A DNA stretch of 64,000 nt, from the IMG/VR virus record IMGVR_UViG_3300021256_000065, one strand, 5' to 3'. Of the stretch, positions 10,011 to 49,100 are shown one piece after another. How positions within the stretch are numbered: position 1 is the first letter of the stretch; each line of letters opens with the position of its first letter. The notes below the pieces were generated by a model that was not told the origin of the DNA, ran no database searches, and saw only the letters and a list, made by a program, of their open reading frames with translations. Origin of the DNA: a virus. Both the position numbers and the translations under genes were made by a program.

Positions 10011-10793
10011 TTAATTATAGAATCCATTCCCATTGCATCCACAATTATTCCAATTACCGCAATTGCATCCATAAGGATTTGCAACTACATACGCGGGAAT
10101 TGGTGCAGGATTTAATGCTCTAAGTAATGCAGTTGTTTGAGCCGCATTGTCATTTAAAATCTGACCAGTCTGAGCATTCTGGGAAGCCGCAAGACTTGCA
10201 AGATAACCTTGCATCTGAAGCTGTTGATTCTGTGTCTTAAGAGCATCAATCTCTTGCTGACAAAGCTTATCAAGAATAGCCTGTGTATTTGCTGTATTAG
10301 AAGCAATTACATCACGAAGCGCATCTGTCACAGCAGAGCGATCAGCGCATGCTTCAGTAGCTACTGTATATTTAAGATCAGCCAGTCCTGCGCGATTTTC
10401 ACAGCAACAGTTCTGCTGATTCATAGCAATAGTATTAAGTTGTGTAGAAAGATTTGCTTGATTATTATTTAAGGTTTGAAGTACGTTTGCTTGCGCGTTA
10501 CAACGAGATACTTCTGCATTGGAGAAACCAGTATTGATAGCACTAGCAATACCACTTAAACCACCAATAACTGCACTTTGATCAAATCCTCTTTGAATAT
10601 CAGCAGTCATATAACCAGCTCCACCGCCGCCATATCCACCGTATCCATTTCCCCATCCTCCTGCGAGAATAAGGATAAATAAAAGAAGAATCCAACCGCC
10701 ATCGTTTCCACCAAAACCAAAACCACCATTATTATTATTGCCAGTAGCAGCCGCAATGTCTGCTAAAGAATAACCATTATTGTTGTTAAACAT
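10011..10793 (-). CDS. Gly-rich membrane-anchored protein with a Q-rich coiled coil and a Cys-rich C-terminus.
   Basis: The likely start is the internal ATG at 10791-10793 behind AAGAGGAGATTAAAA. Stop is TAA at 10011-10013. Hydrophobic segment GGWILLLFILILAGGW. C-terminus CNCGNWNNCGCNGNG. No TAG. Confidence 0.45.
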   Translation of the reverse strand: MFNNNNGYSLADIAAATGNNNNGGFGFGGNDGGWILLLFILILAGGWGNGYGGYGGGGAGYMTADIQRGFDQSAVIGGLSGIASAINTGFSNAEVSRCNAQANVLQTLNNNQANLSTQLNTIAMNQQNCCCENRAGLADLKYTVATEACADRSAVTDALRDVIASNTANTQAILDKLCQQEIDALKTQNQQLQMQGYLASLAASQNAQTGQILNDNAAQTTALLRALNPAPIPAYVVANPYGCNCGNWNNCGCNGNGFYN

Positions 10794-11104
10794 TTTTAAT
10801 CTCCTCTTACTTTCCAAATAAGCCATCAAAAAGTTGTTACACAATGATTAATGAAATTGATTTTTAAAATTTGCAAACTCTTTATCAAAGTCTAATCCCC
10901 TTTGGGCAGCGAGGTTTCGTGCCAATGCCTATAGTCCTGGTGCATTTCCATTCTAAGCTAAATTCATTGCATTATTTAAAATAGGATTACTTTGACTTTT
11001 CTGTTGAAGGATATTCATTACTAATTGTTGTGGGTTCTGCCCGCCCTTAATTAATTGTATTAATTGCATTGGATTCACATTCATATCATATTTTCTCCCC
11101 TTTA

Positions 11105-11581
11105 TCAAAAATTAGTTACAACAGCCTTTTTCTCTTCCGCTTGTGGCGGCGCCTGAGGCTGCATAGATGCCATTAACGCTTGTATTACTTTGTTAAATTC
11201 ATCTTTTGTAACATACTAATTTGAATAAGGACTTTCATCTTCTGTGAAAACATATGTTTTAAAAGTGGCAGTCCCATCATTGTTAATTTGTTTAGTATAG
11301 ATTTTCCCATTGCCAACATCAGTAAAAACCCACAGGGAACCATCTAAATCAATTTGATATGCTCTAGCTTCATCTTTTGATGAAACTGGTCTACATTTTA
11401 AAAATTGATTAGATAACAAATTTTGAGAACCATTCATTCTTCCCATATAATTATCATATGGGGTATTACTCAATAACATGTTATTGTTCCCATAGGGAAA
11501 CTGGATTGGAGTTTGCTGCTGTTGGCTCATTACATTAGGCATTTGTTGTATACCTAAATTTTGATTATTGTAATTTGCCAT
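11105..11581 (-). CDS. Hypothetical Q/N-rich protein, 1 in-frame TAG.
   Basis: ATG at 11579-11581. TAG at 11216-11218. The frame continues to TGA at 11105-11107. Confidence 0.4.
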
Positions 11582-11715
11582 CGATCTCCTCCTTGCGCGC
11601 TTAAAAAATTTTAATAAGTACTCTTTCGCGAAAACATAGGAACATAATATTTCCTACATTTATATATTAAAATTCATCTTAACAGATTATCTAGTTTTGA
11701 CCTATATTTTTTCAT

Positions 11716-11744
11716 TTGACAATTATAAAAATTTTTAGTATAAT
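11716..11744 (+). promoter_or_regulatory. Consensus sigma-A promoter for the RuvC-like gene.
   Basis: TTGACA 11716-11721, 17-nt spacer, TATAAT 11739-11744. RBS and ATG ~30 nt downstream. Confidence 0.6.
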
Positions 11745-11772
11745 TACCCCAAGAGAAAGGAGATTGGTATAA

Positions 11773-12264
11773 ATGAAAATACTATCATTAGATTTATCTA
11801 CTAAATCATCTGGTTGGTGCATAGGATAGGATGGAAAATTTGAAAAATCTGGATGCGTTGCGGCGGCCTCTAAAAATGTAAATGCACGAATTATTAAAAT
11901 TCGTGATGAAATATCTAAAATAATTAAAGAAAATAATATAGATAAAATTGTTATGTAGTAGGTGCGGCCTGAGTACAATTCTCATACTAATAAAGTATTA
12001 ATGTGGTTACAGGCTGCGATTGTTCTCGCCGCTTATGAAATTAATCCAAAAATTTAGTGTGAATTTATTGGAGCTACAGAATGGCGGGCCGCATTAAAAA
12101 TAAAACAGGGACGCGGCATAAAGAGAGAAATGCTCAAACCGCAAGATATAAAATACGTAGAAGATAAATACTCAATTAAAGTCCAAAATGATGACTAGGC
12201 TGATGCAATTTGTATATTTGACGCCTATTGGGAAAAGAATGATAATGAAATTAATTGGGAATAA
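11773..12264 (+). CDS. ruvC: RuvC-like Holliday junction resolvase with 5 in-frame TAG codons.
   Basis: N-terminus MKILSLDLSTKSSGW resembles the RuvC ILGIDPG box. C-terminal DD-TAG-ADAICIF resembles the RuvC DAADALAIA box. Tandem TAG-TAG sits in IVM**VRPEY, aligning with the catalytic IEQ region of E. coli RuvC. Preceded by a consensus TTGACA-17-TATAAT promoter and a GAAAGGAGA RBS. TAA at 12262-12264. Confidence 0.6.
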
Positions 12265-12265
12265 A

Positions 12266-12302
12266 AAAAATGGGTAATGATTATTAATCATTACCCATTT
12301 AT
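12266..12302. terminator. Bidirectional intrinsic terminator between convergent genes.
   Basis: AATGGGTAATGAT…ATCATTACCCATT, a perfect 12-13 bp stem, flanked by A-run and T-run. Confidence 0.6.
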
Positions 12303-12306
12303 TATT

Positions 12307-12720
12307 TTATTCTTTATTACATAAAATAGATTGTAATTGCATTATTTCTCTTGGTGTGAGGATATCATATTTATCATCACTGTAATCAAATATAGAAATA
12401 TCATCTAGTGTAGATAATTTAATTTCTACTTCTATATTTAATAATTCATTAATTTCTGCAATATAATCACTCATATGTTCATCATCAACTTGGGGGATTC
12501 CTGTTGCAGTATAAATATATTCACCTTTGTCATTTTTAATAATAAAATCTTTGTAAGTTTCAATAATTTTATTCAACATTTTGGTATAACAATCTACATC
12601 ACCTTGAATATTTAATGCATTTTTAACAATTAAATATGAGATTTTTTGTGGTAATTTTTTTGTAGAATATTTATTTAATATTTGCATCATGCTAAGTAAT
12701 TCTATATTTTTAATTTTCAT
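12307..12720 (-). CDS. Hypothetical protein.
   Basis: ATG at 12718-12720 after AGAGGA. TAA at 12307-12309. No TAG. Ends at a bidirectional terminator. Confidence 0.4.
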   Translation of the reverse strand: MKIKNIELLSMMQILNKYSTKKLPQKISYLIVKNALNIQGDVDCYTKMLNKIIETYKDFIIKNDKGEYIYTATGIPQVDDEHMSDYIAEINELLNIEVEIKLSTLDDISIFDYSDDKYDILTPREIMQLQSILCNKE

Positions 12721-15700
12721 ATACAATATCCTCTAATTCTTTTATTCTTTTTTGTTGTTTTTGTAATACTGCAATAATAGGAGCAATAAATTGATCATAT
12801 GACAAACCCCATGATAATAAATTATCATCAACCTATTCACCAAAATAAGGTTCAACTTCTTCATCAGGATCATTACTTTTATAACTTGCAGCTACTACTG
12901 ATAAATTTTGATTTAAATTTTTACACACTTTTGCAACATCTTGTGCAATAAATCCCATACGAGTTCTTCGATGATCTCCCTTTTTCCACATAAAAGAAAT
13001 TGGCTATAAAGACATTATAAAATCTTCTGCAAAATCAATCTATCCTAAAATATCTTTTAATTTTCTATCTGAGGATGTATCTACATTTAAACAAAAAACA
13101 TTATTAAATCTATAACCGTCCTGAGTATCTCTTCCTAAATCTACTACTGCTGTATCATGTGTAGGGACTAATCGTGGACTTTGTCCAGATATTCTAATTT
13201 TAGTTTTTTGTGTATTAAATTCTATATGACCAGAGTATTTATCAGGTTTGTTCATTACTCCAGTACTTAATCTTACATCTCCATATGCATCCTATATTTC
13301 AATATCATGTTCCGTTTGATCGTCATTATATCCAACATATAAATTTAATCCTAAATAACTAGTTAGCTGAGTAGCGCCACCAGATCCTTTTAAATTTAAA
13401 CTACTCTTTGGTGTATATAATTGAATATTACCTGTTGAAGGACGTCCTGGCGAATCAGAACCAACCATTACATCCAAATTACCATTTACCCATATCGTTG
13501 AAGACTGATCGCAAAACATCCCCCATTTATGGCTAGAAAAACTCCAAGGAGTTGAATTAGAATAATCAAGTGTGGGAGGCACATATCCAAGATAAATTCC
13601 TTGTGTGCTACTTGACGTAGAGGTTTGATCATTTCTTATTCCTATGTAAGATCCATGATTTGTAATTGCATAAAATGAATTTTTATATAAATCTGGTGTA
13701 CTAGAAACATACAATTTATCAGGTCTTATTTCAACTAAAGAGCCATATGTTAATCCTCCATATGATTGAGGTGGAGTCGTAGTTAAATCTGGATTTGGAT
13801 TATAATCTTCAAAACTAAAACCACCTATATGACCAGTGCCATCTGCATTAAGAGAAAAAGCATTATTACTTGACTTTATTCCATTATTTAATAAATCTAA
13901 TCCACCAATTTTACCTGCAGAAGCATAAATAGTTCCATATATAATTGCATTACTAGCAGTTAATAATCCATTACTAGAAACAACAAAAGTGGTTAATGAA
14001 GAATCTTCTTCCCAATATGTAGTATTTGGCGGCTTGTTACTTTGCGCAGAAGTATGCGCTAAAATACATTTATAAATTTTTCCATTGTCACGAACAATAT
14101 CATCTATAGCATATATGGCATCTTCCTACCAAAGCGGCAATGGCCCACCAACCACGCCATTTTCTTTAATGTACCCGCTCAGTTCATTTTGTAAGCCATC
14201 AACTTTTTCAATAGGAATAGTTGCATTATTTCCCAAATTTAAAGTAGTTGCAGTAATAACACCAGATATATTTGCTTCTTCGGCATGTAATATTCCTTGT
14301 GAATTAACTGAGAACTTACCATTTCCAAATCTGATTTCAGGAGCAGTTAAATTAATTAATAATCCAGCTCCAGCCTATCCTGATGATGTATAATCAATAG
14401 GTAATCCATCCTATCCATAATTAGTAGATTCCCAAAAATTATGACTATAAATCATAGCTTTTTGTGCGATTGGATCTATAATAATTTGACCATTATCTGC
14501 TTTACCAAAAATAGCAGAGCCATTCTAACTATTTAAAAAGAATGTGCGGGCGCCACTATTATACCCAAATAAACCAGACTATGGCTCGCTTTTATCTGGA
14601 GACCGTACCTATCCCATAAGCACGCCAGTAAAACTATTATCATTTTCTTTCCGTCCTGCGCCGACCTGTGGACTAAGAATAAAACCGCCTTCATCATCAA
14701 TTTGAACACTATTGCCATCCCATTCATTTATATGAGATAAGCCATATTTATTTAATAAAAAATGAATAGGAACATTTATTTTACCAATTATTACATTATT
14801 CTGTTTATATATACAACAAACTGCATTATTAACACATAATCCATTATATTTTGATTTTGGACGAATTATACATTGATTTTTTTCATATCCATTATTTGGA
14901 AGAATCTCTAATAAAAGAGAATTAATTGCCGCTCCATCTTTAGATAAATAATTTCCAATAACAGATGGTTCATAAGAAATTGCATGGATACCAGAAACCA
15001 GTGAAATATCTTCCCAAGTGTTATCAATAGATTCTTCACAAATAAATTCAAAAGGACTGGCATCGTCATACTGCGGTGAAATACCATCTGAAGTATATAT
15101 TACATACCTAAATCCAGTATAATCTTTTAATTTTACTCTATATTTTTCATCACTAGTCCAAGCTGTTACTATAGGAATTGTACCATAATAAGTTTTGCTT
15201 TCCCAATCAATACTACATTTAATAATATTTGCTAAAGGTGTATTTAAATTAGAATCTAAATGATCTCCAGTATATTTAATTTGCCCATTATTTGCATTTA
15301 CTATTTCAAAAGCAGATGCATCAGAGTATGTATTATTATATTTATTTTTTAACACACTCCAAATGACACTTGAAGGCTGGGTTAAATTGTCTTGAGCAGT
15401 ATCTGTCATAGAATTACCTTCCCATACCAATTCTCCACTATGCCATAATTGTGCCTTAAAAAATTTATAACTATTATTAATAAGAAGTTCAGTTTCTGCG
15501 GCGGAAGTTCCTAATCCATAGTTTAAAATATACTTATTTCCAGCTTTAGTAATCATTGGAGCCAATGGAGGAACGCTCATTGTTGTATTTGGAACTAATT
15601 TTACTATATATTCAGTTCCATTTGTACCAGGCTCTCCCTGCTTAGCAAAAGTAAAGTTGGTTTCCGCAGATAAACTTAACCCTTTATATCTTACTGTTAA

Positions 15701-17755
15701 TTTTATTTGATTTTTTTGTTTTTGAATATAATATCTTTGTGAAATATTATAAAACAAAGTTGGTTTATCATCATAATATCTATAATTTTCATCTTCATCA
15801 AAGTCTAATCCATTTTCCTATGAATCGACTAACATAGTATTTGTTTTAGGAAATTCCCATTTAATTCTGCAATTATTTATATTTTCCAAAATATCTTCCT
15901 AAATAGGCTGACCTAAATTGTCATATATTGCAAAACTAAGCGGCAAAATTTCTTGCGGCGAGTCCAGACTCTTACTATTTGGAGCAACGCCATTTTCATT
16001 ATATTGAAAAACTTGTGTACCATTATTAATAACAAGAGAATAAAGATCTTCTCCACTTAAAGTATTTTCTAAAGTTATTGATGGAGTACCTAATAAAATA
16101 CCATTCTCATTAACGACAGTACATTTAAAGGTTCTACTATCTGTAATATCATTGATTTGTACATTATAGATTTTATTGCCTTCTACTCTTTGAATAGAAT
16201 TAAAAGCTTTAACATTATTCTATAATGTAGTTAAATTCTCTTTCTACGCATTTTCAAACTTAGTTCCTGAAGCAATCGCATCCTAAAGATTCGTTAATGC
16301 AGTAACCGCTGCAGTATATGCAGTATTTTCTGATGTAGTTTCTGGCAATTCTTCAAGCACCTAATTGTCAGATACATACGCCCAATAGTAATGATAGTTC
16401 TGAGGCTATGTTCCATTAACCTTACAAGTTAAAGTTGGATGTCCAATGTCATAATAAAATTTTGTACCATTACTTGATTCTATTGTCAACTATGGTGTTT
16501 CTGCACATAAATTCTTAATATTAACCTATTTAGATGCGGTGTTTCCATTATAAACAACTACAACTTTAATTTTATTGTCACTTACGGTTGCCGCGGTGAA
16601 ACTCATTTTATATATATTCCCCGCAGGTACCCATTCTATAATAGCATTAGGATCATTAGGAACAGTAGGATCGGCATCAATAATATTACTTTGATTTAAA
16701 CACTACCAACCTCTCCCTAAATGTTTATTATAATATCTATTATTAGCCATGACTTGATTATTTTCTCTTCCCCAATAGAAAGAGAAATTTTTATCAATCG
16801 CTACTTCTTTTCCTTTAATTCTAACTTTTGCGGTAATTGTTTTATAATCAGCTGTTGTAGAATCATCTTTAAAAATAAGCCCTTCTGGGACAGAAAGAGA
16901 AATAGAAAGTCCATTTAATTCAGATTCAGATAATTTTGAAGTTCCAAAAAACTTCAAATTAGTAATTTCTATATCCCCTGTTTCTAATCGTCTATCTGTA
17001 ATAACTCCATTAGCACCAGGGAATTCCTTATTGAAAATCTCTATAGACTCAATACGAATAAAATTCTATCCATCGATTTTAAAATATTGTGATTGTTCTG
17101 TCCCATATGCCAATCTATATGGGTTATCTTTCATGTTATCTTCATTGATTGTATATGAACGAATAACCTCTTGGTTAGAAGTATTATCTAAAAATCTTAA
17201 ATTATAAGTGATACCATAATGACCTCTAGTCTGTCTTTCAGGCGCGATAGAGGTTTTAAAGGTTGCGGCAACCTTAATAGAAGAAGATCGTCTTATATAA
17301 TAAGCTAAGGCCAGATCATCTAATGAAATATCACTAGGTTCTCCATATTGATAAATTGTATATTTATAATCTCTATTTAATGTATTTAAATAAAATTTGT
17401 CAATATCATTAACATTAATGCAATTAGTACCATTAATATCATAAACTGCCTAATTGTCTAACTAACTAATATAACTTACCCCAGACCGCGTAGTTGAACC
17501 TAAGATAGTCTTATCTTTTGACATATCATTGCCTGGAACAAGAATATTAACATAAGAGCCATTAGTATATGTTGTATCTATATTATTAGAATAAGCATAT
17601 ATAATAGCATCTTGATAGCGGCATCTATATTTTCCGATAGACGCGTCCTCACATGAAATAATCTGCGCTTGGATTGTTGTATTATAATTAGCTTTTTCTA
17701 CTTTTGAATTTGCTAATAATTCAATAGCATCCAAAATCGTCTAATTTACATTCAT
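12710..17755 (-). CDS. Tail fibre protein (~1680 codons) with a C-terminal intramolecular chaperone / peptidase S74 auto-processing domain. About 25 in-frame TAG codons.
   Basis: ATG at 17753-17755 after AAGGAGGAAATTATAC. Fragments 17462..17734, 16703..16957, 14609..15757, 13292..13714 and 13040..13255 are all in one frame and all end in TAG. I hand-translated 13715-14608 and 12710-13040 and found only TAG. Stop is TAA at 12710-12712. The C-terminus TSSDRKLKDILG*IDFAEDF...MGFIAQDVAKV...LSYDQFIAPIIAVLQKQQKRIKELEDI matches the endosialidase-type chaperone domain (SDxxLKxNI ... GxIAQE ... coiled-coil tail). Confidence 0.65.
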
Positions 17756-17834
17756 GTATAATTTCCTCCTTATATCTCTAATATAAAAATAAATTTATAT
17801 TATATTAATAGTATAACATATTTTTTTCATTTTT

Positions 17835-18060: not shown

Positions 18061-21000
18061 TTAATTTCTTAATGCTCTTTGAATTGCCATATTCGCAAGT
18101 TCATAGAATGCATCTTCAATTTCTTTTCTAGTATTAACATTTGGAAATACTGCTTCAATATTCACAGTTTGTTCAATACTTTCACCATTAGTATTATCAA
18201 ATAAATTACTAAAACCGCCTTTGATATTATTTGCTCTTGAGTATAAAGAACCTTCTAATGAAGTCTTTAATTCCTCTAAGATAATAGCCATAGTGCTAAC
18301 TCGCTCATTTAATCTATTTATTCGTTCATCACTTGATAATGAATCCATTGTAGCATCTTCAAAGATTTGCATCATTCCAGATAATTGTGAACCATACACT
18401 GTACTATCGGCTTGATCTAATCCATTAAGAACCTGATCTTTTGCGGCATCCCAAGTACCAAGTCCAATAGATTTATCATCTATTTTATTAAAATCATTTG
18501 TATCATTTGCGGATTTCAGATTTGTTTGCTGAAGGAGATCATGTATAGTACCACTTGTAATCATTGCATTTTTAGTAACTTCTTTATAAGCTTCTGCAAG
18601 AGAATGAATATAATCTCTTAAACTAGCAACTTTTGTCATTTCTTTATCCATGTTTGTCATAAGAGCATCATTAGCAGTAATTAATTTACTAGTCTATTCA
18701 GCTAAAGCACTAACACCTTCTTTTGTTTTTTCAAAATCAGTTCCCGCGCTTTCCGCAGTTTCTTTTACATCATTTTTATATTCTTTAGATGCTTCACCAA
18801 CTTTTTCAAAAGCCTACTGACAAGTTGGAACAAAACCGCCCTCTTTAGTCATAGCATCCATCATTGCCTGAATACCACTATCCCAAGTAGGAACTAAATC
18901 TTTCATTATTAAGTCTTTTTCTTCAATGGATAAATTCTTATAATGTTTTGCATCTTCATTATTAAGTAACGCATAATCTTGTAATGCTGAATCAGTTAAA
19001 TTACCTCTAATAACTTCATTCTAAGCAAGTTTACCATTAATATATTCTGCATACTGCTGTTGTAATAATGCAGCCTATCTAGCTTGATCTTCCTAACTCT
19101 TTGACATATCAGACATAATTGCTTTATACTAAGATTGAAAATCTTTCCAAGCCTGTAATGCATCAGATAAATTAGAATTATATCTTTCTTTATCAAAGTT
19201 ATATAAATCATTATTAAGCTAAGCTAATCTTCGCTGAGTCTATAAAATATCATCATCATCCGCAATATATTCATATGAATAGTTGCCTTGAGAATCTCTC
19301 TTTAATCTCATAGTAGTTTTTGCAGCTTGTGCATCTTCTAATGCAATTCTGGCTTGTTCTAATTCCAACAGCTTCTGAGCACGCTCGACATCATACTCAG
19401 TTAACTTATCTTTATTTTCAAGATTAGTTAATTGTTCATCCATCAATCGTTTTAATGCCTGTTGATTTTTTAAATCTTTAGTATCATTAATAGCCTTATT
19501 AAACTATCCTCTTAAATCTTGAAGCGCAAAAGCAGCATTAATAGTATCATAATACTCGTCTGCATTTTTATTCAACAGATCCCATTCTTTTTCAACAAAA
19601 TCAGAGCCTTTTCCGTCACTAATTCTTCTATCTAACTCATCAAAGATTTTATTAATAGAATTAATGTATTTATCTTGAATAGTTTGAATAGATTGTCCAA
19701 TCATACTATTTAAATTGCCAATAGTCTAACGATAATGTTGTTCAAACTTTTCTGCGGCATTGGTATCTCCTGCGTCAACGGCGGCCTGCCATCTTTCTTT
19801 CCACCACGCCGCCTGTTGCCTTAAGAAATCTATTTGCTTATTAGAATTTTCATTAAGCTAAGTATAATATTTATCCATCGCCTCATAGTTTTGATCACCA
19901 TATAACAATGATAATAAATCCATATCATGAGTTAACAACTATTCTACAAAACCATAATTCTACATTTGTTTATTAAATTGATTATCAATTTCATCAATAG
20001 TTGAAAGATATGCCTAATCAACTTCATCAATAGAAGATAACATCCCTTCTAACTGATCTTGTAATGATGCTAAATCAGTTTTTAAATTTTCTAAGGCTTT
20101 TTCTTTATCCTTACCATAAATGTCAGAACTTTCACCTCTATTAATTTTTTCAATTTCCGCTTGAGTTTTGATTAATTGATTTGTTATTGTTTCAATCGAG
20201 CCTGCTGTATCACCGTTACCAAAATATGAGAAGAAATCTTTACTACTCTTTGCGGCGTCCGCAAATATTTTATCAAAGTTGCTATCTTTAACAACATCAG
20301 CTTTATCTATTACATTACGATAAAAATCATTCCAATCTCTTTGAGCTGCGCTCATATCAAGATGAACATCAATTGTTGTTCTAAATCTCTAAACATTTTT
20401 TTCAATTCTTTCTTGCTCTGCTTCATTAATATCATCTTTTGAGTCTTCAATCGCTTCTCTTAACTCGTCATAATCTTTTATTTTATCTTTTAAATTCTAT
20501 AGACTATCACTAGCTTTATTAATTTGCTTATCAAGTTTCTATAATCTTTCTTTTAATTTATCTTTTTTATTTTTATTTGTTTCTTTATTATATTCTTTAA
20601 CTAATTTATTATATTTATCAGTTTTCTTATTAACCTAATCTTGCTGTTTACCAACTATTTTCATATAATTGGTAATATTACCATAAGCATCAAAAGTTAC
20701 TCCAAGCCCTTTTAATGCTTTTTGCTGAGAAGCTAAATCTTTCTCTTGAAGTTTTAATTTTTCCTCAAGTTTTTTCTTCTGCTCTTCTAACAGTTTTGAT
20801 TGCTATCTTAAATTATCTAAAAGATCTTTACCATATAAATGGTCTTGCTTCTTTTGTGCGCGGTCAAGGTTTCGATTGATTTTTTCAATTTGGATATTTA
20901 TATCATGATAAATATCTCTTTCATCTTCAATCTTCTTTTTCTTATCTTTTTTTCCTTTATCAGGTTTTGCAGTAGATCCTTTACTGCCGCCTTTGCCACC

Positions 21001-24000
21001 TTTACCGCCTCTTCCGCCGCTGCCACCAGAACCAGCACGACGAGCAGAGCCTGCAGAGCCGCCACCATTTGAAGCTTGTTTAAACTTAAAACCGCCGCCA
21101 GAAGATTTATGAGCAGATGTCACTTTTAAAGAAAAAGCAGAATTTTCTTTTGTATCAGTAGTTGTAGTTGTTCTTGGAATATATTCACTATCATAAACAG
21201 TATACTAAATAGGAGCTGTACGAACTTCCATATCCTAACCGCGACCAGAAATAATAGGAACCTAACCTACTCTTGTCTAAGGAATAAGTTCACTATCAAA
21301 TCCAGTGATAGTTTTATTCTAAGTTCCCTGATTTTTTTGCTCAACAACCTCAGCATCAATACCCATAGAAGCCAAATAATCAGTTGCTTGCTCGGCAGTC
21401 ATATGGGCAGCATTTACTAAATCTCCTAATTCTTGTAAAAAATTATCTTGATTTAAATCTGCGCCAATTTCAAGGGTTTGAAAGTTCATAAGATCTAATG
21501 AGTTTTGAACAGTATCTAATGATGACATAAAGTCTTCATACATACCTTCATCCCATTTAATGTGACCAATGATATCCTGCTGCGCGGCAATCATTAATCT
21601 ATCATATGCCTAAGTATCACCATCAATGGCGGCTTTCATATCATTTAAATTATCTGTATTAGATAAAAAGTCTTCTGATAAAGAGCCTCCATCTAAATCA
21701 AGTAAATCAGCATAAGCCTCTCTCATTTCTGACATTGCTTGTACTTGATCTTGGATAGAACCACTTTCTAATGCTTTTGTCCAATTCTTATAACTTTTTA
21801 CAACATTTTGACAAGCATCATCAAATCTTAATATTTCTTCAGAAAGTTTTTCAGCACCTTTTCTATCTGTCTATAAACCATTATGTAATTCTTCTGTTTC
21901 ATCAGCAACGTCTTGAATATGATCTGCCAAATTTTCCCACTAATCAGTATCAACATCTGCATCTAATTTTGTTTCGCTGATTTGCTATTGTAAGGCTAAT
22001 CTTTCTTTTCCTTTTTCTATAAGCTAAGTCTAAATTTGATTTAATTCTTCATCAGCTTCTATCTACGCTTTTTTAGCAGATGCAGCATCTGATTCAGCTT
22101 GCATTACTTCGCCTTGACTAAATTGTCCTTCATTTTCAACTTTAAAATTTGCTTTTGCATAATCCTATTGACTTTGTTTTTTAATCTCTTCTAATTCAGT
22201 TTTTCTATTCTATAACTATTGAATATGTTTTTCATTCTCCGCCAACAATAGTTCTTTTGTTACTTCTAATTCAGACTATTTTGCAGCAATTATTTGATTA
22301 AGAACGTCAAGGTATTCTTTTGAATTTACTCCATTCTAAGCTGCTTCATTTAAAATAGAATATTCTTTCCCAACTGTAAATAAAGCAGACATTTGTTCAT
22401 CGCTTAGCTCTCCACCTTTAGCTAAAGTATCTCTTGCAGATGTTAGTGTAGAAACTTCTTTTTTATCAGTTTGAAAATTATCAAAAGAAGAACTAGTTGA
22501 TGAAGCTCTTTCAACCTATTTTTTAAAATCTTCTGCATTAAAAGTACCATTTTTTAATGCTTCAGAAATTTTATTAATATTATCAATAATCCATTGATAA
22601 TCTGTGTCCACTCCAAGAGAAGCGAATAACTCATTTAAAGTTTGTAAATGTCCTAATGCCTAAGAATCTTTAACAGCGGCTTGCGCATTTTTATAATCTT
22701 TTAATTTATCCTTTGCACTATCTACTGCTTTTTCTAATTTACCAAGATTTTCACTTTCTTTATATAAATTTAAAGCAGCCTATTTAGTCTAATTGGAATT
22801 AAAAGCTAAATTATTTGCTTTTGCAAACTATTCTAATTTATCTTCTGTTAAATTAAGTTGCTTTACTTCCTATCCAAAAATATCATTCCATAAAGCTTGA
22901 TATTCAGCTGGACTAATTTTAGATTTTAACTACTATAATTTTTCAAAACTAGTAGCAAGGATTGATAACCCTTCTGCTCTTTGCATAGAATCAGAAGTTG
23001 TTAAAACTGCGTCTTCAAAATCTTTTAATAATTGTTCAGTATCTTGAAGTTTAGAAGGATCGACCTAACCCTCATATAAATTAGATAATAAATTAGTTTT
23101 TTCTTTATATGATAAATCTTTTCCAGATTGAACTTTTTGAATAGCGGAAGAAACTTTATCAAAATTTTTAATAATATTATTAACATTATTATCTTGAGCG
23201 TCTTGAGCAAGAAAATTTTGAATCCATTGTTTCGCTTCTTCAAGAGTTTTAAACTATGGTTTAAATTTATTAATTTGCTAATTTATTTTATTTAATTGTT
23301 CTTCAGAAAAATTCTAAGTTAACCAATTTTGTAAAAAATTTTTAGCATGAGTATCTGTATATCCAGAAATACCTTCTTCAATAGAATCATTTAAAGTTGA
23401 AGCAATTTCTTTTCCCAAAGAAGTTCCTGCAGTAAAGACTTTAAAAACTTCTCGAACTCCATCTTTAAATACAAAATTTAAATTATCTAATCCATAAATA
23501 GATTTAATTAAATTAATTATCATATCTTTTTGCTCTGGATTATTTAACATCTATTGAATCTATGGATTATTAAGCCAAATATTATTTATAGACTATATAA
23601 TTGCATCTGAAATCTGTTTGACACTTTGATCATTATTAGCAAAAATTTCTTCAATATCTTTAATACTTTCATTTTCAGCACTTTTTATTATCTAACCGCT
23701 TTGGACTAAATTATCATAAATCAATTTAATTTTATCTACCATTGATTGATAAACCTAATCCACAGGGATGTCATCGGTTGAGCTAGTAATAGTATCTATT
23801 AATAACATTAATAAATCTTTTTGATTCCAACCAACTTTAATAAATTCTTCTTGTAAATTATCATATAATTCTCTATTTACATCATCAATGCTAAAAGCTC
23901 TTAAAAGCGCATCGGCATCTTCTTCAGTGTAATAAGTTTTTTCTTCTTGCTTTTTTGTTGCATCATCTAAAGCTTGTTTCTTCTCATCAACTGCTGCTTG

Positions 24001-47906: not shown

Positions 47907-47942
47907 TGAGGGTTAGATAAAATTTATCTAACCCTCTTTTAT
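47907..47942 (+). terminator. Intrinsic terminator.
   Basis: GAGGGTTAGATAAA…TTTATCTAACCCTC then TTTT. Confidence 0.6.
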
Positions 47943-47954
47943 ATTGGAGAAAAA

Positions 47955-48848
47955 ATGTTATTTATAATATTAAGTTTTATTTTTTTAATATTTGGTTTAA
48001 TTCTTTTTTACAAAGCCAATCAAATAAAAATTAATAAAAATGAATAGCAAGAAGAATATAAACAAATATTAAAAAATCAAATTACTCAATTAAAAATTGA
48101 GATTGATGCTTTAAAGCAATCTCAATTTAAAAAACAAAAAGAAATTGATTAGTAGTTAATACAATGGCAGGCTAATCGTAAAAAAGAAATTGAAGTATAT
48201 ATAGAAAGTCAAAAACAATTAGCCGATCAAACTGTAAATACAGTATATGAATCTGCCCAAAAGCAAATTTCAGATATTAATAATGATATTCAAAGTACTC
48301 GTAATATAGCATTGCAAGAAAAAGAATAGATACAAACTGAAATTAATAAATTAAAAGCCTCATTAAATGCGGGTGTTGAAGCTCGTCTCCGCGAACAATA
48401 GAAAAAAGATAAAATTAATTTTTATAAACTTTCTATTTCTGAAGCAGATTTAGCTGATGTAAAAATGCTATAGAATTTAAAATCTTCTTTTCATAAACCT
48501 GTTGTTTTAAGTAAACTTATATGGACTCAATATTTCCAAAAACAAATGACAGAATTATGTGATAGAATTTTAGGAAAAAAGACTGTTTGTGGCATTTATA
48601 AAATTACTAATTTATTAACAGAACAATGTTATATTGGTCAAAGTGTTAATATTAGTGATAGATGGAAGCAACATTGTAAATGCGGTTTAGGTATTGAAGC
48701 ATCCGCAACAAATGTTTTATATAATGCCATGCAAAAAAATGGAGTATGGAATTTTAGTTTTGAATTATTAGAATAGTGTTCAAAAGATCAATTAAATGAA
48801 AAAGAAAGATTTTGGATATAGATGTATCAAAGTAATAAATTTGGTTTA
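47955..48848 (+). CDS. Membrane-anchored coiled-coil protein with a C-terminal GIY-YIG (T5orf172-like) nuclease domain. 8 in-frame TAG.
   Basis: N-terminal TM (MLFIILSFIFLIFGLILFY). Coiled coil. GIYKITNLLTEQCYIGQSVNISDRWKQH is GIY-YIG motif A. FELLE-TAG-CSKDQLNEKERFWI-TAG parallels the I-TevI ILEEIPYEKDLIIERENFWI region. TAA at 48846-48848. Confidence 0.55.
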
Positions 48849-48870
48849 AATACTACAAAGGGGAATTTAT

Positions 48871-49100
48871 AATGATTAAAGTTTTTACTTTAAATAAAAA
48901 TAATAAAATTGAATTAACTAAATAGGAATTACAAAAGTTATTAGATGAATCTTATTGGGAGGGCAGAAATTCAGTTTATATCTCACCCTCTTGGACATAT
49001 GTTTCTCCAACTAAATGGACTTATGATACCACAACAGAACCATTATCAACAAACGCAGCAACCGCAACAATTATAGTAGGAGATAATAAAAATGAAATTT
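48871..49100 (+). CDS. Small hypothetical protein with 1 TAG.
   Basis: ATG at 48871. Ends with TGA, overlapping the start of the next gene. Confidence 0.2.

What the first reader, a model, noticed from the sequence alone, without database searches (positions are those of the whole stretch)
11716..12302. RuvC-like resolvase cassette embedded antisense in the late operon
This is a self-contained unit: a perfect TTGACA-17-TATAAT promoter, an RBS, a 163-codon RuvC-like gene and a bidirectional terminator. It sits on the opposite strand between late structural genes. It carries 5 TAG codons, including a TAG-TAG pair at the position of the catalytic Glu box. It looks like a moron-like insertion that nevertheless evolved, or arose, in the recoded background.
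Basis: partly seen in the sequence, partly recalled or inferred. Interest (0 to 1): 0.55.

Follow-up and report, generated by a model that had tools for sequence, protein, structure and literature searches.

The report
Resolvase gene exposing amber-as-glutamate code
A conserved phage gene for a DNA-junction-cutting enzyme carries five in-frame TAG 'stop' codons exactly where relatives have glutamate, including the catalytic one, which indicates that this gut-phage lineage reads TAG as glutamate and not as the glutamine assumed for recoded phages.

Summary
A 163-codon gene lies on the + strand at 11773-12264. It has a perfect TTGACA-17-TATAAT promoter, a GGAG ribosome-binding site and a 15-bp two-way terminator hairpin. 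It sits between minus-strand late genes and carries TAG at codons 19, 62, 63, 95 and 142.

The protein is a RuvC-fold Holliday-junction resolvase. It is conserved, with its own promoter and terminator, across a large family of roughly 115-145 kb phages, so it is not a recent moron-like insertion.

The main result is what TAG means. Codon 62 aligns with the catalytic Glu66 of E. coli RuvC. In 79 resolvase genes aligned from 80 related loci plus the window, this codon is GAA/GAG or TAG, never CAA/CAG. Genome-wide, 96 TAG sites in 36 genes align mainly with Glu, and Glu beats Gln by 98.7 log-likelihood units. The same pipeline returns Gln for a sister TAG-recoded clade and Trp for TGA-recoded relatives.

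The near-identical genome encodes a conserved tRNA(CUA). Its sequence does not reveal which amino acid it carries.

The best reading is an amber-to-glutamate code. Active nuclease can then be made only once the suppressor tRNA works. I found no report of this code in phages. All evidence is comparative, and proteomics is needed.

The parts
11716..11744 (+). Sigma-70/SigA-type promoter: TTGACA, 17 nt, TATAAT
   Evidence: 12/12 consensus match. The same motif is conserved upstream of orthologs in most related loci.
11756..11763 (+). Shine-Dalgarno site AAAGGAGA
   Evidence: Read from the sequence, with GGAG at 11759. AGGAG/GGAGG is conserved in relatives.
11773..12264 (+). RuvC-fold Holliday-junction resolvase gene: 163 sense codons plus TAA, with 5 in-frame TAG
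11791..11793 (+). Codon 7 GAT, catalytic Asp (aligns with E. coli RuvC D7)
   Evidence: Invariant in alignment A1. Aligned to D7 of 1hjr.
11827..11829 (+). TAG codon 19, a variable E/K/N/D/Q column
11956..11961 (+). TAG-TAG, codons 62 and 63. Codon 62 is the catalytic Glu position (E. coli RuvC E66). Codon 63 is mostly Glu in the family.
   Evidence: At codon 62 the aligned genes carry GAA/GAG 68, TAG 11, CAA/CAG 0. Profile alignment to 1hjr. TAG and GAA alternate among close relatives.
12055..12057 (+). TAG codon 95, an E/K/T column
12193..12204 (+). D141-TAG142-A143-D144. The two C-terminal catalytic Asp codons flank a TAG at a column that is Glu in 61 of 62 non-TAG sequences.
   Evidence: The motif lies at the start of the last helix of the model. 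Correspondence to RuvC D138/D141 is inferred from motif and fold.
12268..12300 (.). 15-bp hairpin acting as a two-way intrinsic terminator, for the resolvase (+) and for the gene 12307-12741 (-)
   Evidence: Hairpins follow the ortholog in most relatives.
11105..11659 (-). Flanking late-block gene on the opposite strand (2 TAG)
12307..12741 (-). Flanking late-block gene on the opposite strand (0 TAG)

Best explanation
The cassette is a conserved core gene of a family of roughly 115-145 kb gut and rumen phages. These phages probably infect Bacillota and resemble the 'Agate' clade. The gene encodes a RuvC-type Holliday-junction resolvase that would debranch replicated and recombined DNA before packaging.

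The gene is its own transcription unit. It has a consensus host-type promoter, a Shine-Dalgarno site and a two-way terminator.

Its five in-frame TAG codons are sense codons that stand for glutamate, not glutamine. One of them is the metal-binding catalytic Glu.

A phage-encoded tRNA with anticodon CUA lies elsewhere in the near-identical genome and presumably reads these codons. Until that tRNA is made and charged, ribosomes stop at codon 19, and any read-through that does not insert Glu lacks the catalytic Glu. Active nuclease therefore appears only after the code switch.

Shown: the gene, its fold class, its conservation, the signals, the positions of the TAGs, the Glu signature of TAG genome-wide, and the presence and conservation of the tRNA(CUA).

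Inferred: junction cleavage itself, the timing lock, and which synthetase loads Glu. My guess for the last is the host GluRS. The tRNA would escape GatCAB amidation because it lacks the U1-A72 pair.
For: Identity of the protein:
- phrog_159 and phrog_827 Holliday-junction resolvase families match at E 2e-18 and 1e-15.
- The model of homolog P0005 has pLDDT 90.7.
- Its top 14 PDB matches are all RuvC, including Lactococcus phage bIL67 RuvC, at TM 0.69-0.80.
- The profile aligns family D7 with RuvC D7 and family E62 with RuvC E66.

Conservation of the cassette.

TAG = Glu:
- In 79 resolvase genes aligned from 80 related loci plus the window, codon 62 is GAA/GAG in 68 and TAG in 11, never CAA/CAG. 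Codon 142 is GAA/GAG in 68, TAG in 10 and ATT in 1.
- Residues opposite TAG-bearing columns of the resolvase alignment are E far above K, D and Q.
- Genome-wide, opposite TAG sites: E 47.7%, TAG 15.6%, K 6.7%, D 5.4%, Q 4.5%. Of 23 TAG sites in conserved columns, 21 are E.
- In the one-vote-per-site test, 96 sites in 36 genes give E 52, K 10, Q 6. Log-likelihood favours E over Q by 98.7. Stop codons in relatives face W 5.35%, E 2.14% and Q 0.47% of the time.
- Among close relatives (at least 80% identity), TAG exchanges with GAA/GAG in 384 of 571 and 626 of 873 cases. It exchanges with CAA/CAG in 38 and 92.
- Codon 62 alternates between TAG and GAA among close relatives.
- Controls with the same pipeline: the sister clade L027/28/30/55 gives Q (19 of 54 sites, E 3), and TGA-recoded relatives give W (140 of 245).
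- HMM scores are highest with E substituted: phrog_159 scores 67.5 bits with E, 53.5 with Q and 48.8 with X.

The tRNA:
- tRNA(CUA) lies at L297:19364-19437 in contig IMGVR_UViG_3300021399_000007, which is locally near-identical to the window.
- The same 74-nt tRNA occurs in 12 further viral and metagenome loci (two of them the same contig in both collections), always with CTA. The acceptor stem shows compensatory changes.
- It never has U1-A72, which the phage tRNA-Gln genes have. It always has A73, whereas the phage tRNA-Trp genes have G73. The phage tRNA-Glu genes also have A73.

Late-like recoding level:
- TAG makes up 5 of 17 Glu sites in the resolvase. That is similar to the rest of the - block (121/603, p=0.36) and unlike the + block (20/754, p=1e-4).

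Host:
- The gene has a Shine-Dalgarno site and a SigA-type promoter.
- The DnaE-type polymerase is 40% identical to those of Enterococcus and Bacillus phages.
- Resolvase relatives sit in MAG bins of Bacilli, Clostridiales, Ruminococcus and Acholeplasmatales.
Against: - All evidence for Glu is comparative. There is no peptide evidence.
- The tRNA(CUA) sequence does not look like a tRNA-Glu. Its best matches are weak: tRNA-Trp at 48-50 of 74 nt, and His, Asp and Glu at 46 of 74. The charging step is therefore a guess.
- The window protein scores 21.5 bits on Pfam RuvC even with E substituted, just under the 22.2 cut-off.
- The alignment to E. coli RuvC is weak (E 0.2, N-terminal part only).
- The tRNA genes are also preceded by host-type promoters. 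The delay would then come only from tRNA accumulation, which is unproven.
- Some TAG sites align with K, Q, S or N. This is expected at variable positions, but it does not exclude a degree of mixed decoding.
- About 9 kb of the reference genome (contig positions about 90.7-99.9 kb) was not seen.
- The window is not base-for-base the same as that contig: the resolvase is 94% identical to it.
Confidence: 0.75

Rival explanations
1. Standard phage code 15: TAG is read as glutamine. The protein then has Gln at the catalytic position and is a junction-binding but non-cutting protein, or it uses another acidic residue.
For: - TAG=Gln is the published assignment for recoded phages (Borges et al. preprint; phAss-1 paper PMC10607447).
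- Public protein databases already hold this protein translated with Q (P0001-P0004).
- A sister clade of the same family does show a Gln signature.
- Codon 19 is CAA in a few relatives.
Against: - CAA/CAG never occurs at codon 62 or 142 in the 79 aligned genes, while TAG and GAA alternate there among close relatives.
- 21 of 23 conserved TAG columns genome-wide are Glu, and the log-likelihood gap is 98.7.
- TAG exchanges with GAA/GAG about 7-10 times more often than with CAA/CAG.
- The pipeline can tell Q from E, as the control clade shows.
- From established RuvC work (my own knowledge), carboxylate-to-amide changes of the catalytic residues abolish cleavage.
Confidence: 0.06
2. TAG is decoded ambiguously. 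The suppressor tRNA would be charged with a mixture (Glu plus Gln or others), or two tRNAs (CUA, and the UUA tRNA-like gene of this genome) would both read it. Only a fraction of molecules would then be active.
For: - The tRNA(CUA) has no clear isotype signature.
- A tRNA-like gene with a UUA anticodon lies in the same cluster (L335:2898-2972).
- A minority of TAG sites align with K, Q, S or N.
Against: - Selection has placed TAG at strictly Glu-only columns in several essential proteins, including TerL and the resolvase. That would be costly if much non-Glu were inserted.
- The UUA tRNA-like gene has a poor acceptor stem and is absent from the relatives examined.
- TAA remains the main stop codon.
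Confidence: 0.12
3. A recently acquired moron-like cassette, foreign to the late operon, that later picked up TAG codons.
For: - It has its own promoter and terminator.
- It lies on the opposite strand between late genes in the window.
Against: - It is present with the same signals throughout the family, including standard-code, TGA-recoded and TAG-recoded members.
- Its G+C equals that of its surroundings.
- In most relatives it ends a co-directional block, so the antisense position is derived.
Confidence: 0.05
4. Antisense noise or a decaying pseudogene interrupted by real stop codons.
For: Under the standard code the frame is broken five times.
Against: - The frame, its length (161-174 codons) and 48 invariant residues are kept across relatives.
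- The TAGs fall at Glu columns, not at random.
- Neighbouring genes need TAG as a sense codon too.
- TGA-recoded relatives carry TGA at Trp columns of the same gene.
Confidence: 0.01

Closest known systems
RuvC Holliday-junction resolvases (E. coli 1hjr, T. thermophilus 4ld0, D. radiodurans 7xhj) and Lactococcus phage bIL67 RuvC (4ktw)
   Same: - Same fold (TM 0.69-0.80).
- Similar size, about 160 residues.
- Asp at the end of strand 1 and Glu at the end of strand 4.
- Two Asp residues three positions apart at the start of the last helix.
   Different: - Only 14-21% sequence identity.
- The window protein is just below the Pfam RuvC cut-off.
- The catalytic Glu is written as TAG.
- There is a family-specific, near-invariant Glu between the two C-terminal Asp residues.
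Phages with TAG recoded to glutamine (NCBI table 15: crAss-like, Lak, phAss-1 and others)
   Same: - In-frame TAG concentrated in late, structural and nuclease genes.
- TAG-free replication genes.
- A phage tRNA(CUA).
- A host that presumably uses the standard code (papers read).
   Different: The amino acid is different. Here TAG aligns with Glu, whereas a sister clade analysed in the same way aligns with Gln. Borges et al. state that only TAG-to-Gln and TGA-to-Trp were seen in phages whose code differs from the host's.
'Agate' clade of alternatively coded phages (Borges et al., 10.1101/2021.08.26.457843)
   Same: - Genome size class.
- Animal-gut and cattle sources.
- Standard, TGA-recoded and TAG-recoded members within one family.
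- Several recoded modules, and recoded homing-type nucleases.
   Different: Membership could not be tested because no Agate sequence was available to me. That paper treats TAG as Gln.
Eukaryotic nuclear codes with TAG/TAA = Glu (peritrich ciliates, NCBI table 30; Blastocrithidia, table 31). This comparison rests on my own knowledge.
   Same: The amber codon is assigned to glutamate.
   Different: - Those are whole-genome nuclear codes of eukaryotes that also reassign TAA.
- Here only TAG is reassigned, in a virus, and only in part of the genome.
- The host presumably still uses TAG as stop.
Late debranching nucleases of phages (T4 endonuclease VII, T7 endonuclease I). Functional analogy from my own knowledge.
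   Same: A junction-resolving nuclease needed before packaging, whose untimely activity would harm replication intermediates.
   Different: - Unrelated folds.
- Their timing is set by transcription. Here it would be set by the need for a suppressor tRNA.

Membership tests
RuvC-family Holliday-junction resolvase | RNase H-like RuvC fold | tested here: met
   Model of the 76%-identical homolog P0005: pLDDT 90.7, pTM 0.87. The top 14 Foldseek PDB hits are all RuvC, with E 1e-8 to 9e-7 and TM 0.69-0.80.
RuvC-family Holliday-junction resolvase | Catalytic acidic tetrad Asp-Glu-Asp-Asp | tested here: inconclusive
   - D7, D141 and D144 are invariant.
- The Glu position (aligned to RuvC E66) is a TAG codon in the window.
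- The feature is met if TAG = Glu, as searches indicate, and not met if TAG = Gln.
RuvC-family Holliday-junction resolvase | Score above the curated Pfam PF02075 cut-off | tested here: not met
   Scores are 21.5 bits with E, 19.3 with Q and 16.4 with X, against a cut-off of 22.2. Many close homologs carry precomputed PF02075 or PF07066 hits. PHROG resolvase families match strongly.
RuvC-family Holliday-junction resolvase | Dimeric, Mg-dependent symmetric cleavage of four-way junctions | not testable with these tools
   Needs biochemistry.
Code 15 (TAG = Gln) recoded phage | In-frame TAG in many genes and no gene ending in TAG | tested here: met
Code 15 (TAG = Gln) recoded phage | Phage-encoded tRNA with anticodon CUA | tested here: met
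   L297:19364-19437, in the contig that is locally near-identical to the window. It is not in the window itself.
Code 15 (TAG = Gln) recoded phage | TAG positions correspond to glutamine in homologs | tested here: not met
   Glu is the plurality residue at 52 of 96 sites and Gln at 6. Of 23 conserved columns, 21 are Glu. The control clade gives Gln.
Moron (autonomous accessory cassette in a late operon) | Own promoter and terminator | tested here: met
Moron (autonomous accessory cassette in a late operon) | Sporadic presence among close relatives, or foreign composition | tested here: not met
   The gene is present across the family. Its G+C is 32.7%, against 33.7% locally.
Agate clade (Borges et al.) | Phylogenetic placement by terminase with named Agate genomes | not tested
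   No Agate sequences were available. There is only a resemblance in size, habitat and mixed codes.

The most novel reading that the evidence does not exclude
A clade of large gut and rumen phages has reassigned the amber codon TAG to glutamate, read by a conserved phage tRNA(CUA) of unclear ancestry. This code has not been described for any phage or bacterium. It coexists within one phage family with TAG-to-Gln, TGA-to-Trp and standard-code clades. The resolvase's catalytic Glu written as TAG is the cleanest single-site witness. It also makes the nuclease strictly dependent on the code switch.
Probability: 0.8. Interest if true: 0.85.

Novelty: new variant of a known kind. Interest (0 to 1): 0.78.

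Why it matters
1. It would add a third amino-acid outcome to phage stop-codon recoding, which is currently thought to yield only Gln and Trp. It would also show that one phage family can hold four different codes, so code change would be even more fluid than proposed.

2. It raises a sharp and testable mechanistic question: which host synthetase is hijacked to put Glu on a CUA tRNA? In hosts that make Gln-tRNA through GluRS plus GatCAB, does the choice between Glu and Gln simply depend on whether the suppressor is a GatCAB substrate?

3. There is a practical consequence. Gene callers and databases translate these genomes with table 15, so every TAG site is currently mistranslated as Q. Examples are P0001-P0004 here, including catalytic residues. 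This degrades annotation, structure prediction and proteomic searches.

4. A catalytic residue written as a recoded stop codon is a neat natural 'safety lock' on a nuclease. Such tRNAs may also be useful parts for genetic-code engineering.

Tried and rejected
- I first assumed a crAss-like phage with TAG=Gln. I rejected this because the polymerase is DnaE-type and closest to Enterococcus and Bacillus phages. The genes also have SD sites and SigA-type promoters, and TAG aligns with Glu.
- Near relatives in GenBank phages: none by megablast. There were only distant resolvase hits by tblastn.
- Sequence searches of the PDB with the single protein found nothing. The profile gave only a weak RuvC hit.
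- Search for the suppressor tRNA:
  - None was found in the window.
  - None was found in about 300 loci around the resolvase, polymerase, portal and early genes.
  - It was found only after walking the reference contig to about 88.8 kb.
- Inferring the tRNA's amino acid from its sequence gave no decisive result. I tried BLAST against annotated phage tRNAs, pairwise comparison with the phage's own tRNAs, and acceptor and discriminator features. Features are compatible with Glu, unlike Gln (no U1-A72) and unlike Trp (A73 instead of G73).
- I searched for the same tRNA body with a sense anticodon in viral and metagenome collections. All 13 homologs found have CTA, so its ancestry stays open.
- The G1.U72 pair shared with the phage tRNA-Glu genes turned out to be common among these phage tRNAs and is not diagnostic.
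- The metagenome search with the window's left-end tail protein found nothing, so contig positions about 90.7-99.9 kb remain unseen.
- None of the conserved-column TerL TAG sites lay in an obvious catalytic motif.
- No aminoacyl-tRNA synthetase or release factor was found among the window ORFs scanned.
Full report
**1. The observation**

- The + strand has TTGACA (11716-11721), a 17-nt spacer and TATAAT (11739-11744). This is the only 12/12 match in 10500-13500. The total number of promoter-like sites there equals the shuffle expectation, so the match alone is weak evidence.
- AAAGGAGA lies 10 nt before an ATG at 11773.
- The frame runs to TAA at 12262-12264, giving 163 sense codons. TAG occurs at codons 19, 62, 63, 95 and 142.
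- A 15-bp hairpin at 12268-12300 scores as a terminator on both strands.
- The neighbouring genes 11105-11659 and 12307-12741 are on the - strand.

The whole window is TAG-recoded.
- Reading TAG as sense raises the longest ORF from 837 to 3121 codons.
- The - strand block 1-27423 is TAG-rich, and the + strand replication block is almost TAG-free.
- No gene ends in TAG.

**2. What the gene is**

- With X at the TAG positions, the protein matches the PHROG Holliday-junction-resolvase families. With Glu substituted, the scores rise to 67.5 bits, E 2e-18.
- 599 database proteins match it, most of them 161-163 residues long.
- D7, D141 and D144 are invariant.
- An AlphaFold model of the 76%-identical homolog P0005 has pLDDT 90.7. 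Its top 14 PDB matches are all RuvC proteins, including the RuvC of Lactococcus phage bIL67, at TM 0.69-0.80.
- A family profile aligns to E. coli RuvC so that family D7 matches D7 and family E62 matches E66. The match is weak: E 0.2, N-terminal part only.
- D7, E66, D138 and D141 are the established catalytic residues of E. coli RuvC (my own knowledge). The motif D141-x-A-D144 at the start of the last helix fits D138/D141 by position. That correspondence is inferred.
- The window protein stays just under the Pfam RuvC cut-off: 21.5 bits against 22.2.

**3. Not a moron**

- I fetched 80 related loci from viral contigs. The gene is standard-coded in 32 of them, carries TGA at Trp columns in 17, and carries TAG in 31.
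- The TTGACA-17-TATAAT promoter (often with a TG extension), a strong Shine-Dalgarno site and a downstream hairpin recur across the family.
- In most relatives the gene is the last of a co-directional block that converges on the late genes. Only in the window's subclade are both flanks on the opposite strand.
- The gene's G+C (32.7%) equals the local value.

It is therefore an old core gene with its own signals. The 'embedded antisense' position is a later rearrangement.

**4. What TAG means**

This is where the finding becomes interesting. The evidence comes from the resolvase itself, from the rest of the genome, and from controls.

*In the resolvase*
- In 79 resolvase genes aligned from these loci plus the window, the catalytic codon 62 is GAA/GAG in 68 and TAG in 11. 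It is never CAA/CAG.
- Codon 142 is GAA/GAG in 68, TAG in 10 and ATT in 1.
- Across all TAG-bearing columns of the resolvase, the partner residues are Glu far above Lys, Asp and Gln.
- Codon 62 switches between TAG and GAA among close relatives, in the manner of synonymous codons.

*In the rest of the genome*
- I translated all ORFs of the window, plus three loci from a reference contig that is locally near-identical to the window, with TAG as X. I compared them by tblastn with all fetched loci.
- Opposite TAG sites the residues are Glu 47.7%, TAG 15.6%, Lys 6.7%, Asp 5.4% and Gln 4.5%.
- Of 23 TAG sites in conserved columns, 21 are Glu. These include six in the large terminase.
- With one vote per site, 96 sites in 36 genes give Glu 52, Lys 10 and Gln 6. 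The likelihood of the votes under the empirical Glu profile beats Gln by 98.7 natural-log units.
- Conversely, stop codons in relatives face Trp (5.35%) and Glu (2.14%), but Gln only 0.47% of the time.
- Among alignments of at least 80% identity, TAG is replaced by GAA/GAG in 384 of 571 cases and by CAA/CAG in 38. In the reverse direction the counts are 626 and 92 of 873.

*Controls*
- Gln sites in conserved columns have a Gln majority in 162 of 166 cases. Glu sites have a Glu majority in 308 of 311.
- TGA-recoded relatives give Trp at 140 of 245 sites.
- A sister TAG-recoded clade of the same family (L027/28/30/55) gives Gln at 19 of 54 sites and Glu at 3. In its resolvase, TAG avoids the Glu columns.

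The method therefore separates Glu from Gln. The family holds both a TAG=Gln clade and TAG=Glu clades. The latter comprise the window clade, L012-22, L195 and L065/66.

**5. The decoder**

- Neither ARAGORN nor a permissive Rfam scan finds a tRNA in the window.
- The window matches contig IMGVR_UViG_3300021399_000007 (133,873 bp). One protein is 100% identical and the resolvase is 94% identical, but the two are not base-for-base the same.
- I walked that contig with successive protein queries. At about 86-90 kb I found a tRNA cluster: Ile(TAT), Asn, Lys, Asp, a tRNA with anticodon CUA (L297:19364-19437), Met, and further on a UUA tRNA-like gene, Leu and Asn. A sigma-70 family gene lies inside the cluster.
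- The CUA tRNA is 73-74 of 74 nt identical in three other viral contigs. It also occurs in eight metagenome loci, one of which is the same contig as a viral locus, always with CTA.
- Three acceptor-stem versions differ by compensatory changes, so it is a real and selected tRNA.
- Its ancestry is unclear. The best matches are tRNA-Trp at 48-50 of 74 nt, and His, Asp and Glu at 46 of 74. In GenBank phages it matches tRNA-Trp and annotated suppressors.
- It always has A73 and never U1-A72. The phage tRNA-Trp genes have G73, the tRNA-Gln genes have U1-A72, and the tRNA-Glu genes have A73.

The tRNA sequence therefore neither proves nor contradicts Glu.

*Working hypothesis for charging (inference)*
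- The hosts are probably Bacillota. The evidence is SD sites, SigA-type promoters, a polymerase closest to Enterococcus and Bacillus phages, and MAG bins of Bacilli, Clostridiales and Ruminococcus.
- Many Bacillota lack GlnRS and make Gln-tRNA through GluRS plus GatCAB. GatCAB uses the U1-A72 pair as an identity mark (my own knowledge).
- A CUA tRNA charged by GluRS but lacking U1-A72 would stay as Glu-tRNA and insert Glu.

**6. How the cassette most likely works**

- The gene has a host-type consensus promoter, so it can be transcribed independently of the opposite-strand late genes.
- Translation stops at codon 19 unless the suppressor is active. Without Glu at codon 62 the enzyme lacks a catalytic carboxylate.
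- TAG occupies 5 of 17 Glu positions in the gene. This is the highest share in the window, level with the 3121-codon late ORF and a GIY-YIG nuclease. It is statistically like the late block and unlike the replication block.
- This fits the published idea that recoding delays production of late and harmful proteins (Borges et al.). Here it is applied to a nuclease that should act only when DNA is ready for packaging.
- The timing is inferred. The tRNA genes also have host-type promoters, so any delay would come from tRNA accumulation.

**7. Comparison with what is known, and novelty**

- RuvC-type resolvases in phages are known (bIL67). Recoding with TAG is known, and recoded nucleases are known.
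- What I could not find is TAG read as Glu in any phage. Six full-text searches gave nothing.
- Borges et al. state that only TAG-to-Gln and TGA-to-Trp were seen in phages whose code differs from the host's. They note that TAG aligned best with Gln 'in most cases'.
- The phAss-1 paper on a distantly related Bacillota-phage group assigns Gln.
- TAG=Glu is known in some eukaryotic nuclear codes (my own knowledge).
- The library searched does not cover subscription journals, so a prior report cannot be excluded.

**8. Verdict**

- The cassette itself is a new member of a known enzyme family.
- Its recoded catalytic Glu, backed by genome-wide and control analyses, points to a new variant of phage stop-codon recoding: amber to glutamate.
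- Confidence that TAG is mainly Glu in this clade is about 0.8. Confidence in the full mechanism, including the timing lock and GluRS charging, is lower.

Noticed in passing
window 29886-30710, 35395-36663, 28139-28894, 34314-35144: A Thg1-like gene (tRNA-His guanylyltransferase family, 104 bits), an RNA ligase and two metallophosphatases form what looks like a tRNA repair or 5'-end editing module. Many tRNAs of this phage family have G1.U72 with T at -1 and A73, which might be connected.
   Followed up: partly
L027, L028, L030, L055, L057 versus the window clade: Within one phage family, one TAG-recoded clade shows a Gln signature and others a Glu signature. There are also TGA=Trp and standard-code clades, making four codes in one family.
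   Followed up: partly
window 47910-48872, 39604-40404, 58110-59978: In the otherwise TAG-free + strand block, TAG codons are concentrated in nuclease-like genes: a GIY-YIG protein (8 TAG, 27% of Glu sites), a 266-aa protein (3 TAG) with no Pfam match that I take to be endonuclease-like, and a RecJ-like exonuclease (3 TAG).
   Followed up: partly
window 18061-27423 (-): A single ORF of 3121 codons with 85 in-frame TAG, unannotated. A second large ORF at 12710-17794 has 1695 codons and 24 TAG.
   Followed up: no
window 30747-33257: An 830-aa protein with a major-vault-protein 'shoulder' domain (81 bits), unusual in a phage.
   Followed up: no
window 57309-58106: A microbial-type poly(ADP-ribose) glycohydrolase-like domain (91 bits).
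   Followed up: no
L335:2898-2972: A tRNA-like gene with anticodon UUA (ochre type) in the window's reference genome. It has a Glu/Gln-like D arm (my own reading, by eye) but a weak acceptor stem, and it was not seen in relatives.
   Followed up: partly
L195:2300-2901 (-): A relative's tRNA cluster holds a tRNA-like gene with only a 3-nt anticodon loop and U1-A72, and a 96-nt tRNA with an 8-nt loop. A GC-rich stretch of about 230 nt, which looks structured by eye, lies nearby.
   Followed up: partly
L335:3244-3317; L337:3446-3519; L338:2557-2630; L345:2597-2670; L344:5094-5167: One tRNA body (TGATGGG...CCCATCA, A73, U1-A72) is called with different anticodons (GTT, TTG, GTA, GTG) in different relatives. 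This is either anticodon switching or mis-parsed loops.
   Followed up: no
L297:16560-17473: A sigma-70 family gene lies inside the tRNA cluster that holds the suppressor.
   Followed up: no
L164:1830-2720: An ORF-free stretch of about 900 nt between early genes of the reference genome, with no Rfam match.
   Followed up: no
P0001-P0004 (public protein database): The closest database entries for this resolvase are translated with Q at every TAG position, including the catalytic one. Public pipelines evidently apply table 15 to this clade.
   Followed up: yes
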